Source: a virus. Taken from it: DNA of 35,256 nt. Within the stretch, counting starts at the first letter, position 1. Each line of letters opens with the position of its first letter. Shown here piece by piece: positions 17,205 to 28,799 of this stretch. Below the pieces are notes generated by a model. It had not been told where the DNA came from and did no database searches. It was given only the letters and a program-made list of their open reading frames with translations. The stretch lies in the UHGV virus genome UHGV-1783823; one strand, 5' to 3'. The translations under genes and the position numbers were made by a program.

Positions 17205-19904
17205 TTAGTGAACCTCAAGCCAGCTTTTACCAACCTTACCAGTACCTGTAACAAGCGTTTCTTTCTTAAGACCTAAGTTCTTAGAAGCTTGTCCATAATA
17301 CCAGTCAGTAACTGCTTTCACTTCTGCCGTCATACTTTCTGGACATTCCCAACTTGTTTCATCGTGATATGCACAGAGTAAACGAGCACCAATAGCTGGT
17401 TGACGACCATTTAACTTCATTAAGCCTTCGTCAATCATACGACGGCAAGCAAGGTTAATTGCCTCATTTTGAATCTGAGCCTCTGAACCCATGAGCAAAT
17501 AATTCAACAGCTTATGCGGAGATTTACACCACAACCAAGCTCCAGCAACCTTTACAAAACCCCCTTTAGAGATTGCAGCAGTCTTACCAAACACCTCTTC
17601 AAGTGCCTTTTTAGTTGCTTTGTAGTCAGCTTCCAAGTCATCTAACAGCTTCTTAATTTTAGGCAAACGTATAAAGTAAGTCTGTTTAGTCAGCGCACCT
17701 TCCTGAGTAGTCGCAGCTTTAATCGTCTTAGCAAACTTCTCATCACCTGCACCGAACAGCAGTGCATAGATACCATTCTTAGCTTTCTTACGACCTTTGC
17801 TAATCTCATGAAGAAGATTCTCATCCTGAGTAGCTCGACAAGTCAAGATGTCCTGCTCATCATTCAAGCTAAAGTAAATACTGTTCAGTGTATGTGCATC
17901 AGTCCCTGAATAGACAACGTACAGGTCATTCTCAGAGTCATAGCGAAGGTACTTATCAATCTCTGGGTTGAGGTACTCATCAAAATGTTTGCAGTAATAG
18001 CGTCCATCTTCTTGACGAATGAACTCAATTTCTTCTTTACCTTGCGTTACCGCTTTGGTGAAGTCTTTATCACCCATAAAGTTACAAAGTAGAACTAGCT
18101 GGGCTGAGTTCATATCTACAGAGACAACGTTAGTACCTTCCTCACAAATCCACACTGCCCTCATTGGTTCCCCATAGACAGCAGCACCAGACGGTACGTT
18201 TACAATACCATATTGTGTCATACGTCCAGTTGAAGTACCAAACACCATTGCACCAGCACTAAGGCGACCATCAGGACGAATCTGGTTCAACCAACCTTTT
18301 TCATCATCCTTTGAGTTCTCAATAGTTCTGCGTCGGTGCATCAAAGTATAGTACTTAGCAATCTTCTGTCCAAGCTCACCTTCAATCGTATCATAAGATG
18401 ATTCAGTAAGTTTTGGTGAAGTACGGATTAAGCAAGGCTCAAGCAAATCTGTGTACTTCTTCACAGACCAGTTATGCTCAATGTACTGTACACCTTCATG
18501 TTCAACATAGCTCAAACCACACCGCTCAACCATTTCCTGCCACTTAGGATGTTTTGTAATCATCTTTTTATTGTCTTTGAAACGACAAACTTTGACAGGG
18601 CGACCGTCTGAGTCTTTCTTGTAGTTCCAGTCATCTGGAATCCAACCAACTGATTTCAAGTAGTCTTTTACAACTGCTACCTGAGTCATACGAGAAACTT
18701 CAAACTCAATTGGTGTATATGGTGCATCAATCAATCCTGTGTAGCGACTTGACTCAAGTTCAAAGTGGTTAACAACGTGGCTGTTATAGTACTTCACAGT
18801 TTTGACTGTTTTTACTGGCTTCCAGTCTTTGCATTTCTTACCAATCTTTGCATTCAACTCATTGCAAATTGCACGAGCATCCTTCATTGCTACAAAGCCT
18901 TCCTTGTACTCTTCACCAGTTACAGAGTTGGTTGGTGTATAGCAATTTCTCTTTTCAATGTTAAAAATCTTTGTAGTTGGCTTACCAAATGGTTTGATTT
19001 CATAAGTCTGCATCTCACCATTACGCACCTGCTGACGATACTTCGTCTTAGGGTACTTGGTAATTCTTTTCAGTCCATCTGCATGACCAAATGCTTCAAC
19101 ATACTCATTCCAAGCTTTTGCAAACTCTTCTCCAGTGACTTTACCTTTGGTCTTAATAGTTGGAGGTAGATGTGGTTCAACCTCTGAAGCAAGCTCATTA
19201 GTCAACTTGTCAAGTTCCTTTACATGGAACTCCATAAGCTCTTTATCAGCTTTCCAACCATTGATAGCTTGTTGACTCATCCAGAAAGATGTTTCTTTAG
19301 CTCGCATATAGGTTTCATAAGTGTCTATACCACACTTCTTAAGCTTCAGGTATTCATTATCCAGTGCACGTTTAGTTTTGGCGTTAATACGGATATCTTC
19401 TACAACACGAGTGAAGATTTCTGCATTCCACACACCCCAATGTTCAATCTCTGGTTTACGGACACCAACACGAGCACCCCATGCAGCCAAGCCATGAGCA
19501 CCTTTATAGCCTTTTGGAGTTGGTCTATCCATCCACTGAACACGAGACTGGATAAGAGAATCCTGAAAGAAATTACTCCACGGTTTACACTTTGGATTAT
19601 CAAAGTTCCACAAATCAGGTGCAATGTGATTGAAAACCCACCAGTCATATCCTAGACCATTGTGGATGCAAAGTCGTTTTGCCTTTAACGCAAACTCAAT
19701 ACCTTCACGTAAGCCGCCCTTAATGTACTTGGTATACTTGTGACCGAGGATAGGCTCATCTGTAAAGACCCATACAGGTGGCTCTTCATCGTCAGATTTA
19801 TAGTCTGCGAAAGCCATTACGTGCACTTTAGTGAACTCAAGGAGTAAACCATCAGTTTCTGTATCACCAACTAAATGTAAGTTTTTAAAATCTACGTTTT
19901 CCAT
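17205..19904 (-). CDS. DNA polymerase, family A (Pol I/T7-like) with 3-prime-5-prime exonuclease domain
   Basis: Exo I motif DTETDGL; motif A VDMNSAQL; motif B RKKAKNGIYALLFGAG; motif C AYHDE; start set at ATG 19904 preceded by RBS GAGGGAG (ORF-track start 19934 has no RBS). Confidence 0.9.
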   Translation of the reverse strand: MENVDFKNLHLVGDTETDGLLLEFTKVHVMAFADYKSDDEEPPVWVFTDEPILGHKYTKYIKGGLREGIEFALKAKRLCIHNGLGYDWWVFNHIAPDLWNFDNPKCKPWSNFFQDSLIQSRVQWMDRPTPKGYKGAHGLAAWGARVGVRKPEIEHWGVWNAEIFTRVVEDIRINAKTKRALDNEYLKLKKCGIDTYETYMRAKETSFWMSQQAINGWKADKELMEFHVKELDKLTNELASEVEPHLPPTIKTKGKVTGEEFAKAWNEYVEAFGHADGLKRITKYPKTKYRQQVRNGEMQTYEIKPFGKPTTKIFNIEKRNCYTPTNSVTGEEYKEGFVAMKDARAICNELNAKIGKKCKDWKPVKTVKTVKYYNSHVVNHFELESSRYTGLIDAPYTPIEFEVSRMTQVAVVKDYLKSVGWIPDDWNYKKDSDGRPVKVCRFKDNKKMITKHPKWQEMVERCGLSYVEHEGVQYIEHNWSVKKYTDLLEPCLIRTSPKLTESSYDTIEGELGQKIAKYYTLMHRRRTIENSKDDEKGWLNQIRPDGRLSAGAMVFGTSTGRMTQYGIVNVPSGAAVYGEPMRAVWICEEGTNVVSVDMNSAQLVLLCNFMGDKDFTKAVTQGKEEIEFIRQEDGRYYCKHFDEYLNPEIDKYLRYDSENDLYVVYSGTDAHTLNSIYFSLNDEQDILTCRATQDENLLHEISKGRKKAKNGIYALLFGAGDEKFAKTIKAATTQEGALTKQTYFIRLPKIKKLLDDLEADYKATKKALEEVFGKTAAISKGGFVKVAGAWLWCKSPHKLLNYLLMGSEAQIQNEAINLACRRMIDEGLMKLNGRQPAIGARLLCAYHDETSWECPESMTAEVKAVTDWYYGQASKNLGLKKETLVTGTGKVGKSWLEVH

Positions 19905-19934
19905 TTTTACTCCCTCTAAAATCATTAACCTCAT

Positions 19935-25785: not shown

Positions 25786-26832
25786 ATGGAGAAGTACACA
25801 TTAACAAAACTTCCCGATTCAGTTACACATGTTTTTATTGACTCTGACAGCATTGCCTATAAAGGTGCTTGTGTAGTTGAGAAAGCAAAATATAAATACG
25901 TCAATAAACTCACAGCAGAAGAATCTGAACCATTTGACAATGCGAAAGATGCTGCAAGATGGTTAGCAGACCAGAGAATCCTTGTGGAAGAACTTGGCCT
26001 GACATTTGATGAAGATGAATGGGAAAGACAGACTTGGAAAGAAGCTAAGAGTGAAAAAGAAGCTATCATGGCTACTCAACAGGTGCTTCAGGAATGGCTT
26101 AAGATTGTTGGTAAAGAAAGAACTTGGGTAGGTTATTTAACAGAGAAAGGTGTGCATAAACATAAAGACATTAAAGGTCTTGAGCACCAATATCAAGGTA
26201 ACCGTAAAGATGCTGTCACACCAACACACTTAGTCGCTTGTCGTGAATACCTTCTGTCAAGACCAGAGTTCAAACTAATTCTTGATGGATTTGAAGCCGA
26301 TTCTATCGTTATTGCTAAAGCTGAAAAGATGGGTAAAAAGGCTGCCTTGATGAGTATTGATAAAGACCTTCGCCAAGCTGAAGGGACTTACTGCATTGAT
26401 ATGACCTATGAAAAGTCGCCTTTGATTTTCATTGCTGACAACAACGTAGGTGAAATTTGGGATTGCCCAATAAAATCAACACCAAAAGCTAAGAAGACAG
26501 TTGGTGTAGGTTTTAAATTCCTTTGTTATCAAGCTGTGGCTGGTGACAATGCTGATAATTATTTTGGTTTAAAGGGTGTTGGTAAGGCTACTGTAATGAA
26601 AGCCCTTGAAGGTAAAAATACTTATAAAGAGTGTCTTGATGCTATCTATGAACTTTATGCTAAGAAAGACTCCTACACTTATGTATCATGGGATGGTCAA
26701 ACAATTACCAGAACACCTTTAGAATTAATGCAGCAACACTTTTTCTTAGCTTATCAGGAAAGAAATAAAAAAGACGATTTTACTTTTGATAAGTATGGGT
26801 GGACACCAAATGTTAACTCAACAAACTCTTAA
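25786..26832 (+). CDS. Flap endonuclease / 5-prime-3-prime exonuclease (FEN-like)
   Basis: N-terminal acidic motif VFIDSDSIAYKG; H3TH-like segment AGDNADNYFGLKGVGKATVMKAL. Confidence 0.7.
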   Translation: MEKYTLTKLPDSVTHVFIDSDSIAYKGACVVEKAKYKYVNKLTAEESEPFDNAKDAARWLADQRILVEELGLTFDEDEWERQTWKEAKSEKEAIMATQQVLQEWLKIVGKERTWVGYLTEKGVHKHKDIKGLEHQYQGNRKDAVTPTHLVACREYLLSRPEFKLILDGFEADSIVIAKAEKMGKKAALMSIDKDLRQAEGTYCIDMTYEKSPLIFIADNNVGEIWDCPIKSTPKAKKTVGVGFKFLCYQAVAGDNADNYFGLKGVGKATVMKALEGKNTYKECLDAIYELYAKKDSYTYVSWDGQTITRTPLELMQQHFFLAYQERNKKDDFTFDKYGWTPNVNSTNS

Positions 26833-27301
26833 AGAATACCTACATTATGACCCCGAAACAGGGGTCTTTACTTGGATTAAGAAATCTGCTAGACACACAA
26901 AAATTGGCTCTGTTGCAGGTACAAACTTAAGAGGGTACACCAGAATTTATTTGTTTGGTAAGGGCTATTATGCACATACCCTAGCCGTTCTGTATATGGA
27001 TGGATACCTACCTGAGTGTGTTGACCATAAAAATCATGTAACACTAGACAATCGCTGGGTAAATCTTAGGGCATGTACGTTATCAGAGAACCAATGTAAT
27101 AGGTTGCTCAATAAGAACAATAAATCAGGTGTTAAAGGTGTGTACTACAAAAAACAGTATGGTAAGTGGTCTACACAGATAACTTTTAAGAAGAGGGTCT
27201 ACTTCTTCGGCAACTATGACACTATTGATGAAGCAGCAGAGGTTGTAAATAGGGAACGTCAACGTTTACACAAAGAGTTTGCTAATAAAGGTGATGAATG
27301 A
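26810..27301 (+). CDS. HNH homing endonuclease with AP2-like DNA-binding domain
   Basis: N-terminal LKEYLHYDPETGVFTW; HNH core CVDHKNHVTLDNRWVNLRACTLSENQCN; AP2-like GVKGVYYKKQYGKWSTQITFKKRVYFFGNYDTIDEAAE; start chosen at ATG 26810 (ORF track begins at TTG 26786). Confidence 0.8.
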   Translation: MLTQQTLKEYLHYDPETGVFTWIKKSARHTKIGSVAGTNLRGYTRIYLFGKGYYAHTLAVLYMDGYLPECVDHKNHVTLDNRWVNLRACTLSENQCNRLLNKNNKSGVKGVYYKKQYGKWSTQITFKKRVYFFGNYDTIDEAAEVVNRERQRLHKEFANKGDE

Positions 27302-27798
27302 GAAAAATAAAAGGTTTTGGTAATTGCCCTGAATATGGACATTGGGTTTCACTATGTGGTGAAGTTGACCCAGCAAAGCACTTTGGTTTTGTCTACCTAG
27401 TGTACTGCAAAAAGACTGGACAGTACTATTTGGGTAAGAAACAGCTTAATAGTGTGACCAAAAGAAAAGTTGCTGGCAAGACTCGGAAGAAGGTAGTCAC
27501 TAAGGAAAGTGATTGGATGACTTATGAGACTTCTTCTGAGTATATTAAAAAAGATATTGAGAGTTTTGGAAAAGAATTTTTTGACTTTTACATTATTCAA
27601 ACCTACTACACAAAAGGTGGCCTAGTCTATGGTGAAGCAAACCTTCAACATAAATTCGATGTAATGACAAAAAGGATTGACTCGAAGCTCAGACTCTTCT
27701 ACAATGCCAATATTGCAGCAATTAAGTTTATTACTAAAGAAACTTATGAAGATGCTGAAAAAAGAATCCATAAGGTAATGAAAGCAAATTGTGCTTGA
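27298..27798 (+). CDS. Putative GIY-YIG family endonuclease
   Basis: N-terminal FGFVYLVYCKKTGQYYLGKK resembles the GIY...YIG motif pair with expected spacing; ATGA overlap with HNH gene. Confidence 0.5.
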   Translation: MRKIKGFGNCPEYGHWVSLCGEVDPAKHFGFVYLVYCKKTGQYYLGKKQLNSVTKRKVAGKTRKKVVTKESDWMTYETSSEYIKKDIESFGKEFFDFYIIQTYYTKGGLVYGEANLQHKFDVMTKRIDSKLRLFYNANIAAIKFITKETYEDAEKRIHKVMKANCA

Positions 27799-27804
27799 TA
27801 ACTA

Positions 27805-28068
27805 TTGAGAGAGAATAAAATGTTTAACAAAAGTAAAGCTGTGAGTCATGTAGCAAAGGTTGACAGCAAGATTGAAGAACTTGAGCGCATTCTTGCAAAT
27901 GCCAGAGAGTCAATAATTAAAGAAGTTGAAGCTGTTGAATCCCAAATGCAGCACCTAATGCTTAAACGTCAAGAGTTACGTGAGCATCTGGAATATATTG
28001 AAACACGAGAGCTAAAAGTTAACAGATATTTTAAGGAGTCCGAATGTTTAACTCAAGAGAATCAGTAA
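27805..28068 (+). CDS. Hypothetical coiled-coil protein
   Basis: 87 aa, charged helical sequence. Confidence 0.45.
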   Translation: MRENKMFNKSKAVSHVAKVDSKIEELERILANARESIIKEVEAVESQMQHLMLKRQELREHLEYIETRELKVNRYFKESECLTQENQ

Positions 28069-28799
28069 AAAACTGGAACCTTCGTTGTGGAAACACTCAA
28101 AAGCAACCTTACAGTAATGAGTATTGGGAATCTTTAAAATCTCAATCTCTGTGTATGCTTGAAGAAGCAAAAGAGCTTGTAAAAGCAATTGAAGAGAAAG
28201 ACCCCATTGAGACACTGGATGCTCAGGCAGATTTACAATATGTTCTTGACGGTTTGATTTACCTGTCACAACATGACCATAACGGTGCTATGGAAGCTGT
28301 TTGCCATAATAATGACCTGAAGTACACAGATGACTATGAAGAAGCTTTAAAACGTCTTGCAGACATTGAAAATCGTACTGGTCAAGAGTGTGTTATCAGA
28401 ATGTCAGTAGTTGATGGTAAAGAATGGTATGCGATTGTTCGTGCAGCCGATGGGAAGATTATGAAGCAATCAAATCTCCCTAAAGTACAGCTTGGTGAAT
28501 ACATTGTAGAACTTGAAAGCCAAGAACTTTTTGTGGTAGTATCTGAGACATGCGTTATCTGCAAAGGTATTGTAGATAGTTTAAAGAATTTGGGTGTAGA
28601 TGGTTTTGTAGAAGTTAATCCAATTACCTCTAAAGCAGATAAAGACTTCTGTAAAGAGAATGGACTATGGATTGCAGATATTATCTACTATGATGGTGAG
28701 CAGTTCCATGTAACCTCATACCCGAAACTGAATTATGATGCTAATAACCTGAAGTGTTGGTTAAAAGGGGTTGGTTATAATGGATTCACAGAACATTAA
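28044..28799 (+). CDS. MazG-like nucleotide pyrophosphohydrolase domain protein with C-terminal extension
   Basis: N-terminal LEEAKELVKAIEEKDPIETLDAQADLQYVLDGLIYL resembles the MazG EExxE...E..D helical motif; C-terminal ~150 aa unassigned. Confidence 0.4.
   Translation: MFNSRESVKNWNLRCGNTQKQPYSNEYWESLKSQSLCMLEEAKELVKAIEEKDPIETLDAQADLQYVLDGLIYLSQHDHNGAMEAVCHNNDLKYTDDYEEALKRLADIENRTGQECVIRMSVVDGKEWYAIVRAADGKIMKQSNLPKVQLGEYIVELESQELFVVVSETCVICKGIVDSLKNLGVDGFVEVNPITSKADKDFCKENGLWIADIIYYDGEQFHVTSYPKLNYDANNLKCWLKGVGYNGFTEH

What the first reader, a model, noticed from the sequence alone, without database searches (positions are those of the whole stretch)
26810..27798. Tandem free-standing homing endonucleases (HNH-AP2 and GIY-YIG-like) between replication genes
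Two endonuclease genes of different families sit back to back with an ATGA overlap, right after the flap-endonuclease gene, which they overlap by 23 nt. Free-standing homing endonucleases in phages mark sites of mobile-element insertion and can bias marker inheritance in co-infections. The adjacent host genes (FEN, MazG-like) may contain the cleavage sites in endonuclease-free relatives.
Basis: partly seen in the sequence, partly recalled or inferred. Interest (0 to 1): 0.55.

Follow-up and report, generated by a model that had tools for sequence, protein, structure and literature searches.

The report
One mobile nuclease, one resident nuclease
In this Felix O1-like phage, the first of two back-to-back nuclease genes is an ordinary, already annotated mobile homing-endonuclease gene present in only about 40% of relatives, while the second is found in essentially every relative and is more likely a long-fixed working gene than a mobile element.

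Summary
ORF1 (26810-27301) and ORF2 (27298-27798) exist, share an ATGA overlap, and ORF1 overlaps the 5'-3' exonuclease (FEN) gene by 23 nt.

The window is a Felixounavirus, 97% identical to deposited genomes.

ORF1 is an HNH_3+AP2 free-standing homing endonuclease gene.
- It sits in a polymorphic slot, occupied in roughly 35-40% of relatives.
- Three allele families, about 55% identical, use the same junctions.
- The insert is 26803-27293. It replaces 9 nt of the empty site and rewrites the last FEN codons.
- A sharply bounded divergent block travels with it: 26247-26802 in FEN and 27304-27463 in ORF2. Differentiation between occupied and empty genomes (Fst) is 0.3-0.7 inside and about 0 outside.

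ORF2 belongs to the SegE GIY-YIG family (Pfam E 9e-27) and keeps all ten family-invariant residues.
- It lacks the C-terminal DNA-binding module.
- It is single-copy in 297 of about 300 Ounavirinae records, always directly after FEN or after the HNH insert.
- Its dN/dS is 0.03-0.05, as constrained as FEN.

It is most likely an anciently fixed, probably domesticated nuclease of unknown role. Both genes are already annotated in public records, so interest is low to moderate.

The parts
25786..26832 (+). FEN-family 5'-3' exonuclease gene (348 aa). Its last 9 codons (TPNVNSTNS*) are supplied by the HNH insert.
   Evidence: phrog_107 'exonuclease' at E 1e-65, with weak Pfam 5_3_exonuc hits. In genomes with an empty slot the tail reads WEPCMNEN* instead.
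26247..26802 (+). Upstream block of diverged sequence linked to HNH presence. It is a putative co-conversion tract and the region most likely to hold the cleavage site.
   Evidence: Compared 16 HNH+ with 13 empty Felixounavirus loci. Between-class divergence is 8-34% and Fst 0.30-0.70 here. Further upstream divergence is 1-5% and Fst about 0. Recombinant flanks are seen in L029, L010 and L017.
26803..27293 (+). The inserted HNH cassette (491 nt). It replaces 9 nt (GAGCCATGT or a variant) of the empty site.
   Evidence: Alignments of occupied and empty loci. The size difference of 3201 versus 2716 nt agrees.
26810..27301 (+). ORF1: a free-standing HNH_3 + AP2 homing endonuclease gene (163 aa, allele family A).
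   Evidence: Pfam and PHROG hits. There are three allele families, about 55% identical, at the same junctions, each found in at least two genera, with within-family dN/dS of 0.02-0.11.
26843..26875 (+). 33-nt stretch inside ORF1 (HYDPETGVFTW), with no synonymous change except one at each end, containing the GC hairpin at 26849-26866.
   Evidence: Conserved in this way across allele families A, B and C and in a paralogue at another locus. Flagged as terminator-like. Found at 232 places in 179 phage records.
27298..27798 (+). ORF2: a SegE-family GIY-YIG nuclease-domain protein (166 aa) with no DNA-binding module. It is a fixed core gene of Ounavirinae.
   Evidence: PF19835 at E 9e-27. hhalign to T4 SegE gives probability 94.8%. 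All 10 family-invariant residues are kept. Found in 297 records, one copy each. dN/dS is 0.03-0.05.
27304..27463 (+). Downstream block of diverged sequence linked to HNH presence (the first ~165 nt of ORF2).
   Evidence: Fst is 0.26-0.52 and between-class divergence 12-16% here. From 27464 onward Fst is about 0.
27820..28799 (+). Context: a conserved 82-aa ORF (27820-28068, phrog_4442) and the MazG-like pyrophosphatase gene (28044-28799).
   Evidence: There is no HNH-linked differentiation here.

Best explanation
**ORF1** is a genuine free-standing HNH-AP2 homing endonuclease gene.
- It was inserted once at the junction between the FEN-type exonuclease gene and ORF2.
- It brings its own start codon and a new 9-codon tail for FEN. 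Its 3' end carries a Shine-Dalgarno-like sequence (the ribosome-binding motif upstream of a start codon) and restores the ATGA coupling to ORF2, so the operon is not disrupted.
- It persists as a presence/absence polymorphism with three diverged allele families. These spread by cutting HNH-less genomes and being copied in together with flanking DNA (inferred).
- The cut site is inferred to lie in or near the FEN 3' half.

**ORF2** is not part of that mobile element.
- It is a SegE-family GIY-YIG catalytic domain carrying a basic hairpin insert and no sequence-reading module.
- It was fixed before the Ounavirinae genera diverged, is inherited vertically, and is kept by strong purifying selection.
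- Most likely it is a domesticated, low-specificity nuclease working in phage DNA metabolism: replication or recombination, or breakdown of host DNA together with the neighbouring exonuclease and nucleotide-salvage genes.

**Status of each step.** Homology, distribution, boundaries and selection are shown. Cleavage activity, the target site and the cellular role of ORF2 are inferred.
For: **ORF1 and its slot**
- Domains.
- Occupancy estimates: about 21 records carry the same allele, about 65 carry other alleles and about 125 are empty, from an evenly spaced sample of 259 records. In IMG/VR loci 12 are occupied and 19 empty. In a FEN-tail sample 11 of 33 are occupied.
- The left and right junctions are identical in all three allele families and in three genera.
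- Local differentiation is Fst 0.3-0.7 with sharp edges at 26247 and 27463, against about 0 outside.
- Mijalis versus Mordin: only the last ~120 nt upstream are diverged (0.70). In the last 60 nt, Mijalis is closer to a Felixounavirus HNH+ genome (0.88).
- HNH alleles are under purifying selection.

**ORF2**
- Found in 298 records with one place each by blastn. 297 records are at least 60% identical by tblastn, against 304 records with the FEN gene.
- Same position in Felixounavirus, Suspvirus, Mooglevirus and Kolesnikvirus.
- dN/dS is 0.03-0.05, against 0.03-0.07 for FEN and 0.10-0.25 for MazG. Identities track genome divergence.
- All invariant residues of 54 diverse family members are retained.
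- Only 27 residues follow the domain. Long relatives such as P0010 and T4 SegE carry C-terminal parts of 110-115 aa.
- The same exonuclease-then-GIY pair occurs in Naomviridae phage DSS3_VP1.
Against: - No activity data exist for either protein.
- The AP2 hit of ORF1 is below Pfam's cut-off (19.5 versus 33.3 bits).
- HNH alleles of one family found in different genera are nearly as diverged as the genomes themselves (dS 1.1-1.8). Spread between genera is therefore old, and recent homing is not demonstrated.
- The Fst comparison uses 29 partly related genomes with no formal phylogenetic correction. The far flanks serve as the only control.
- For ORF2, the structural model is poor over residues 111-147, which hold E113 and N136. 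No solved structure matches by sequence.
- Outside Ounavirinae the short GIY gene is sporadic. Only 7 of 72 loci with a related Cas4-type exonuclease carry it. The family as a whole therefore still behaves like mobile or accessory DNA. This weakens the idea of an obligate partnership with the exonuclease.
- A fixed endonuclease could also be maintained as a weapon against foreign phages rather than for DNA metabolism.
Confidence: 0.6

Rival explanations
1. Both genes are active selfish homing endonucleases. ORF2 is simply a very successful one that has swept to fixation in all Ounavirinae. It still serves only its own spread, or excludes markers of foreign phages.
For: - ORF2 belongs to the family of T4 SegE, a homing endonuclease (SegE's annotation).
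- Its catalytic residues are intact.
- Its closest relatives outside Ounavirinae are sporadic next to conserved replication genes. Only 7 of 72 Cas4-exonuclease loci carry one.
- A long form with a NUMOD3-like tail sits beside a terminase gene.
Against: - No empty site was found in about 300 genomes of four or more genera.
- Divergence is congruent with the genome, and dN/dS is 0.03-0.05 over saturated dS. The standard homing-cycle model predicts decay after fixation unless the host benefits.
- There is no DNA-binding module.
- No differentiation block is centred on ORF2 itself. The only one is the HNH-linked block, which ends at 27463.
Confidence: 0.2
2. The HNH gene is ancestral and no longer mobile, and the empty sites are deletions. 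The polymorphism then reflects loss rather than homing.
For: Within each allele family, copies in different genera are about as diverged as the genomes themselves (dS 1.1-1.8), as vertical descent would give.
Against: - The empty arrangement, with the FEN tail ...WEPCMNEN* overlapping the ORF2 start, is shared by Felixounavirus, Suspvirus and Mooglevirus. Kolesnikvirus is also empty at this slot, with FEN overlapping the ORF2 start, though its FEN tail sequence was not examined.
- Deletion would have to restore the same 9 nt and the same FEN tail repeatedly.
- Flank haplotypes co-segregate with HNH alleles and show recombinant tracts of varying length.
- All alleles are intact and constrained.
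Confidence: 0.12
3. ORF2 has lost nuclease activity and serves a non-catalytic role. For example, it could be a DNA-binding accessory factor, or its reading frame could be kept only for translational coupling within the operon.
For: - The canonical GIY-YIG arginine could not be mapped.
- The AF2 model is unreliable over 111-147.
- Fold-search scores are weak.
Against: - All ten invariant positions of the family, including Y33, Y44, E113 and N136, are kept.
- Constraint acts on the whole protein, not just the frame: dN/dS is 0.03-0.05.
Confidence: 0.08

Closest known systems
Free-standing HNH homing endonucleases of phages, including the HNH-AP2 genes of Felix O1 and the HNH enzyme mobE of T4
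   Same: - An HNH nuclease domain with a small DNA-binding domain.
- Its own ORF wedged between conserved replication or nucleotide-metabolism genes.
- Sporadic occurrence at a fixed slot.
- Flanking sequence carried along with it.

Felix O1 itself carries an allele (family B) in this very slot, annotated ORF106 'HNH endonuclease'. Six HNH copies are noted in PMC3185647.
   Different: Nothing essential differs. This copy is allele family A, about 55% identical to the Felix O1 allele. The cleavage site is unknown.
T4 SegE and other Seg-type GIY-YIG homing endonucleases
   Same: ORF2's domain is in Pfam SegE_GIY-YIG. The family profile aligns to SegE residues 2-90 with hhalign probability 94.8%.
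   Different: - SegE has a further 115-aa C-terminal part that ORF2 lacks.
- ORF2's family has a 19-aa basic insert after the YIGKK motif (residues 49-67) that SegE lacks.
- ORF2 is fixed and syntenic rather than sporadic.
Stand-alone GIY-YIG nucleases with housekeeping or defence roles, such as T4 endonuclease II (DenA) and domesticated homing-type nucleases like ICP1 Odn (PMC8263062; listed, not read here)
   Same: - Small size.
- No separate sequence-reading domain.
- Kept by the phage.
- Located among DNA-metabolism genes.
   Different: No detectable sequence relation to these proteins was tested or found here. No biochemical or genetic data exist for ORF2. The resemblance is functional analogy only and comes from general knowledge.

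Membership tests
Free-standing HNH homing endonuclease gene | HNH nuclease domain with catalytic residues | tested here: met
   HNH_3 at 44.6 bits against a cut-off of 24.8. The DH(K/R)N...DN...NLR...(E/D/Q)N motifs are kept in all alleles.
Free-standing HNH homing endonuclease gene | Attached DNA-binding domain (AP2) | tested here: inconclusive
   AP2 scores 19.5 bits, below the cut-off of 33.3. However, the full-length match to phrog_99 is E 1e-67, and the paralogue bas63_0046 scores 51 bits for AP2.
Free-standing HNH homing endonuclease gene | Sporadic presence or absence at one site among close relatives | tested here: met
   The slot is occupied in about 35-40% of relatives and empty in the rest, with the same junctions throughout.
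Free-standing HNH homing endonuclease gene | Flanking sequence co-inherited with the gene | tested here: met
   Fst is 0.3-0.7 in 26247-26802 and 27304-27463, and about 0 outside. Cross-genus flank similarity is shown.
Free-standing HNH homing endonuclease gene | Site-specific cleavage of the gene-less allele and biased inheritance | not testable with these tools
   Needs enzyme assays and phage crosses.
Seg-type GIY-YIG homing endonuclease | GIY-YIG catalytic domain of the Seg type with conserved residues | tested here: met
Seg-type GIY-YIG homing endonuclease | C-terminal DNA-binding module (NUMOD, helix-turn-helix or zinc finger) | tested here: not met
   Only 27 residues follow the domain, with no Pfam hit. 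Long relatives (P0010) and SegE have 110-115 aa there.
Seg-type GIY-YIG homing endonuclease | Sporadic distribution among close relatives | tested here: not met
   297-298 records carry it, one copy each, always after FEN or after the HNH insert, in four or more genera.
Seg-type GIY-YIG homing endonuclease | Site-specific cleavage and biased inheritance | not testable with these tools
   Needs experiments.
Stand-alone housekeeping GIY-YIG nuclease (T4 EndoII-like) | Small, domain-only protein conserved as a core gene under purifying selection | tested here: met
   The protein is 166 aa with dN/dS 0.03-0.05 and is essentially universal in Ounavirinae.
Stand-alone housekeeping GIY-YIG nuclease (T4 EndoII-like) | Sequence homology to EndoII, or a demonstrated role in host-DNA breakdown | not tested
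   No comparison with DenA was made. No Pfam PF01541 hit was seen.

The most novel reading that the evidence does not exclude
ORF2 would represent an unrecognised class of short SegE-like GIY-YIG nucleases with a basic hairpin insert and no reading domain. These would have been recruited from homing endonucleases into phage replication modules and would work together with a 5'-3' exonuclease.

In 9 of 14 independent sequence clusters the gene lies directly after an exonuclease gene, of either the FEN or the Cas4 fold. In hundreds of public genomes the gene is labelled 'NAD synthetase' or 'homing endonuclease'.
Probability: 0.3. Interest if true: 0.55.

Novelty: already known. Interest (0 to 1): 0.3.

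Why it matters
- **Annotation.** The label 'GIY-YIG homing endonuclease', and the plainly wrong 'NAD synthetase' that goes with phrog_447, should not be read as evidence of mobility for ORF2. It is a core gene.
- **Phage phylogenetics and engineering.** The block 26247-27463 is a recombination mosaic tied to the HNH gene and should be excluded from trees. The HNH slot is a naturally tolerated insertion site.
- **Biology.** The locus offers a clean natural contrast between a still-cycling endonuclease gene and a fixed, constrained relative of such genes. This is the kind of pair needed to study how selfish nucleases become host genes. None of this is surprising to specialists.

Tried and rejected
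1. **PDB sequence and profile searches for ORF2.** They returned nothing usable.
3. **Link to a published anti-retron 'GIY-YIG' protein, Bas63 gp77 (PMC11482910).**
   - Rejected: the paper's numbering equals the locus tags (g79/g80, g84/g85).
   - bas63_0077 is unrelated to ORF2 and has no GIY-YIG Pfam hit.
   - The true orthologue is bas63_0057, which the text does not discuss. The supplements are not held.
4. **Obligate exonuclease-partner hypothesis.** It was raised by the exonuclease adjacency in DSS3_VP1 and IMG/VR loci. It was then weakened when only 7 of 72 related Cas4-exonuclease loci carried the gene.
5. **Cyanophage homologues (27-36% identical).** They lie in regions of host-derived metabolic genes with no exonuclease nearby and are uninformative.
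6. **NCBIfam.** No hits for either ORF.
7. **Own promoter for either gene.** None found. The promoter-like count is at background.
8. **The search for related loci with the broad alignment A3.** It failed for lack of conserved stretches.
Full report
**What is there.** The window is a Felix O1-like myovirus (Ounavirinae, Felixounavirus). The 3.2-kb stretch around the finding is 97.4% identical to Salmonella phage FSL SP-010 and Escherichia phage VpaE1, and it matches 259 phage records.
- The overlaps are 23 nt (FEN/ORF1) and ATGA (ORF1/ORF2).
- ORF1 matches HNH_3 above Pfam's cut-off, AP2 below it, and phrog_99 'HNH endonuclease' at E 1e-67.
- ORF2 matches SegE_GIY-YIG at E 9e-27.
- The MazG-like gene is one gene further on, after an 82-aa ORF.

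**ORF1 is a polymorphic, mobile-type gene.** An evenly spaced sample of the 259 matching records falls into three classes:
- full-length matches, meaning the same HNH allele;
- 87-88% coverage with unchanged span, meaning a different HNH allele in the same slot;
- 84% coverage with a span of 2716 instead of 3201 nt, meaning no HNH.

By row counts these are about 21, 65 and 125 records. Two other samples agree: 12 occupied against 19 empty in IMG/VR loci, and 11 of 33 in a sample scored by the FEN tail.

Alignment of occupied and empty loci from three genera gives exact boundaries.
- Empty sites read ...AAATATAATTGG|GAGCCATGT|ATGAATGAAAATT...
- The window has 491 nt (26803-27293) in place of the middle 9 nt.
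- The insert supplies the last nine FEN codons (TPNVNSTNS* instead of EPCMNEN*), the ORF1 start codon, and a Shine-Dalgarno-like sequence (ribosome-binding motif) plus the ATGA coupling for ORF2. The operon therefore stays intact.
- There is no promoter-like signal above background for either gene.

**Three allele families share one origin.** Families A (the window, pinkbiff, Sf14), B (Felix O1, EcSzw-2) and C (typing phage 11, garuso, Mijalis) are about 55% identical in protein. They share the same junctions and the first 22 residues. Each occurs in at least two genera, and all are intact with within-family dN/dS of 0.02-0.11. Copies of one family in different genera are nearly as diverged as the genomes (dS 1.1-1.8). 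The polymorphism is therefore old rather than a recent invasion.

**A flanking signature accompanies the HNH gene.** I compared 16 HNH+ with 13 empty Felixounavirus loci.
- Far flanks: between-class divergence is 1-5% and Fst about 0.
- At window position 26247 both jump, to 8-34% divergence and Fst 0.30-0.70, and stay high to the junction.
- Downstream they stay high (Fst 0.26-0.52) to 27463, then drop back to 0.

The block is thus about 555 nt of FEN, the HNH gene, and about 165 nt of ORF2. Flank haplotypes go with allele families, and recombinants with tracts of different length exist:
- L029 is empty but has an HNH-type flank up to 15 nt from the junction.
- Sf14 has only about 20-25 nt of HNH-type flank.
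- HY02 combines a type-2 flank with allele A.

In Mooglevirus, Mijalis (HNH+) and Mordin (empty) are at least 83% identical in every 60-nt window of the flanks, and at least 90% in most, except the last ~120 nt upstream, where they are 0.70-0.72. In the last 60 nt, Mijalis is 0.88 identical to a Felixounavirus genome carrying the same allele family. This is the pattern expected from repair-mediated copying of an endonuclease gene with its flanks. The asymmetry points to a target in the FEN 3' half, but the cut site itself is inferred, not shown.

**ORF2 is a nuclease homologue but not a mobile one here.**
- *Distribution.* blastn finds it in 298 records, exactly one place each. tblastn finds 297 records at 60% identity or more, against 304 records with the FEN gene.
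- *Position.* It sits directly after FEN, or after the HNH insert, in Felixounavirus, Suspvirus, Mooglevirus and Kolesnikvirus.
- *Divergence.* Its identity follows the genome: 85-86% to Suspvirus and Mooglevirus and 61% to Kolesnikvirus. FEN gives 89-90% and 54%, and MazG 75-78% and 40%.
- *Selection.* Its dN/dS is 0.03-0.05, equal to FEN and lower than MazG.
- *Family.* An exhaustive profile search finds about 2200 clusters. Among the 150 top hits listed, lengths are bimodal: domain-only proteins of 130-190 aa, and proteins of 230-360 aa with a C-terminal extension, such as P0010 with NUMOD3-like repeats.
- *Residues.* ORF2 keeps all ten positions invariant in 54 diverse members: G30, Y33, Y44, G46, K48, W73, Y76, S79, E113 and N136.
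- *Relation to T4 SegE.* The family profile aligns to residues 2-90 of SegE at probability 94.8%. SegE lacks ORF2's basic 19-residue insert and has 115 further residues that ORF2 lacks.

**What ORF2 might do.**
- The same exonuclease-then-GIY overlapping pair occurs in DSS3_VP1, which belongs to a different family, Naomviridae.
- I grouped the Ounavirinae, DSS3_VP1 and the 46 closest IMG/VR relatives into 14 clusters at 70% identity. In 9 of them the short gene lies directly after an exonuclease gene, of either the FEN or the Cas4 fold. In 3 more it lies in a module of nucleoside deoxyribosyltransferase, GIY, DNA polymerase A and FEN. Only the long form sits next to a terminase gene.
- This first suggested a working partnership with the exonuclease. 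The counter-test weakens it. Of 72 loci with a related Cas4-type exonuclease and enough downstream sequence, only 7 carry the gene. GIY-less relatives are 67-70% identical in the flanking genes.
- Outside Ounavirinae the short form is therefore sporadic, as mobile or accessory genes are.

The best reading is an endonuclease of homing-type ancestry that became fixed in the Ounavirinae ancestor and has since been kept by selection on the phage. A role in DNA metabolism is plausible from its context (FEN, MazG, ribonucleotide reductase) but is not shown.

**Comparison with what is known.**
- Felix O1's HNH genes were reported with its genome, which notes six copies (PMC3185647). Felix O1 carries allele B in this slot.
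- Several GenBank records already call the two genes 'HNH homing endonuclease' and 'GIY-YIG homing endonuclease'. Others label ORF2 'NAD synthetase', the name attached to phrog_447.
- The published Bas63 essentiality screen discusses a different 'GIY-YIG' gene, g77. ORF2's orthologue is bas63_0057 and is not discussed.

**Verdict.** The object is already in the databases and of a known kind. The useful additions are the exact insertion boundaries, the sharply bounded HNH-linked mosaic block, and the evidence that ORF2 is a fixed, constrained core gene rather than a second mobile element.

Noticed in passing
window 26843-26875 (hairpin 26849-26866): A 33-nt stretch inside ORF1 shows no synonymous change, apart from one at each end. 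It is conserved in this way across three HNH allele families that are otherwise about 55% identical, and in a paralogous HNH-AP2 gene beside the DNA polymerase gene of Bas63. It contains a perfect 6-bp GC hairpin followed by TTT, which the terminator scan flags. The motif occurs at 232 places in 179 phage records, and wherever the match is annotated with a function it lies in an HNH or homing-endonuclease gene. These include phages outside the Ounavirinae, from Cronobacter and Klebsiella hosts. This suggests constraint at the nucleotide level, either as a regulatory RNA hairpin or as a recombination site between paralogues.
   Followed up: partly
window 27298-27798 and orthologues in public records: ORF2 orthologues are labelled 'NAD synthetase' in many RefSeq and GenBank records, and so are distant cyanophage homologues. 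The name belongs to phrog_447. Nothing in the sequence supports it, since the only domain is SegE_GIY-YIG.
   Followed up: partly
L046 3001-3499 (Escherichia phage EC6): The ORF2 orthologue of EC6 is split into two ORFs by a 1-nt insertion directly after an A6 run, and is annotated as two 'NAD synthetase' genes. This is probably a sequencing error. It is the only disrupted copy seen.
   Followed up: partly
public records GU169904 (Staphylococcus phage SA1), MG065664 and MG065668 (Campylobacter phages A132 and A126): Records named for Staphylococcus and Campylobacter phages contain this Felixounavirus region at 93-95% identity. This suggests mixed or mislabelled assemblies.
   Followed up: no
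L015 2576-3968 (phage DSS3_VP1, Naomviridae): A phage of a different family has the same arrangement: a 5'-3' exonuclease gene overlapping a short SegE-like GIY gene (43% identical to ORF2). The pair sits between the DNA polymerase and primase/helicase genes.
   Followed up: partly
L009 16631-19517 (Bas63): In the related phage Bas63 the nrdD gene is annotated as joined from two pieces around an HNH + NUMOD1 homing endonuclease gene, which suggests an intron. A further HNH-AP2 gene lies beside its DNA polymerase gene. The window has no HNH gene beside its polymerase gene at 17205-19934.
   Followed up: no
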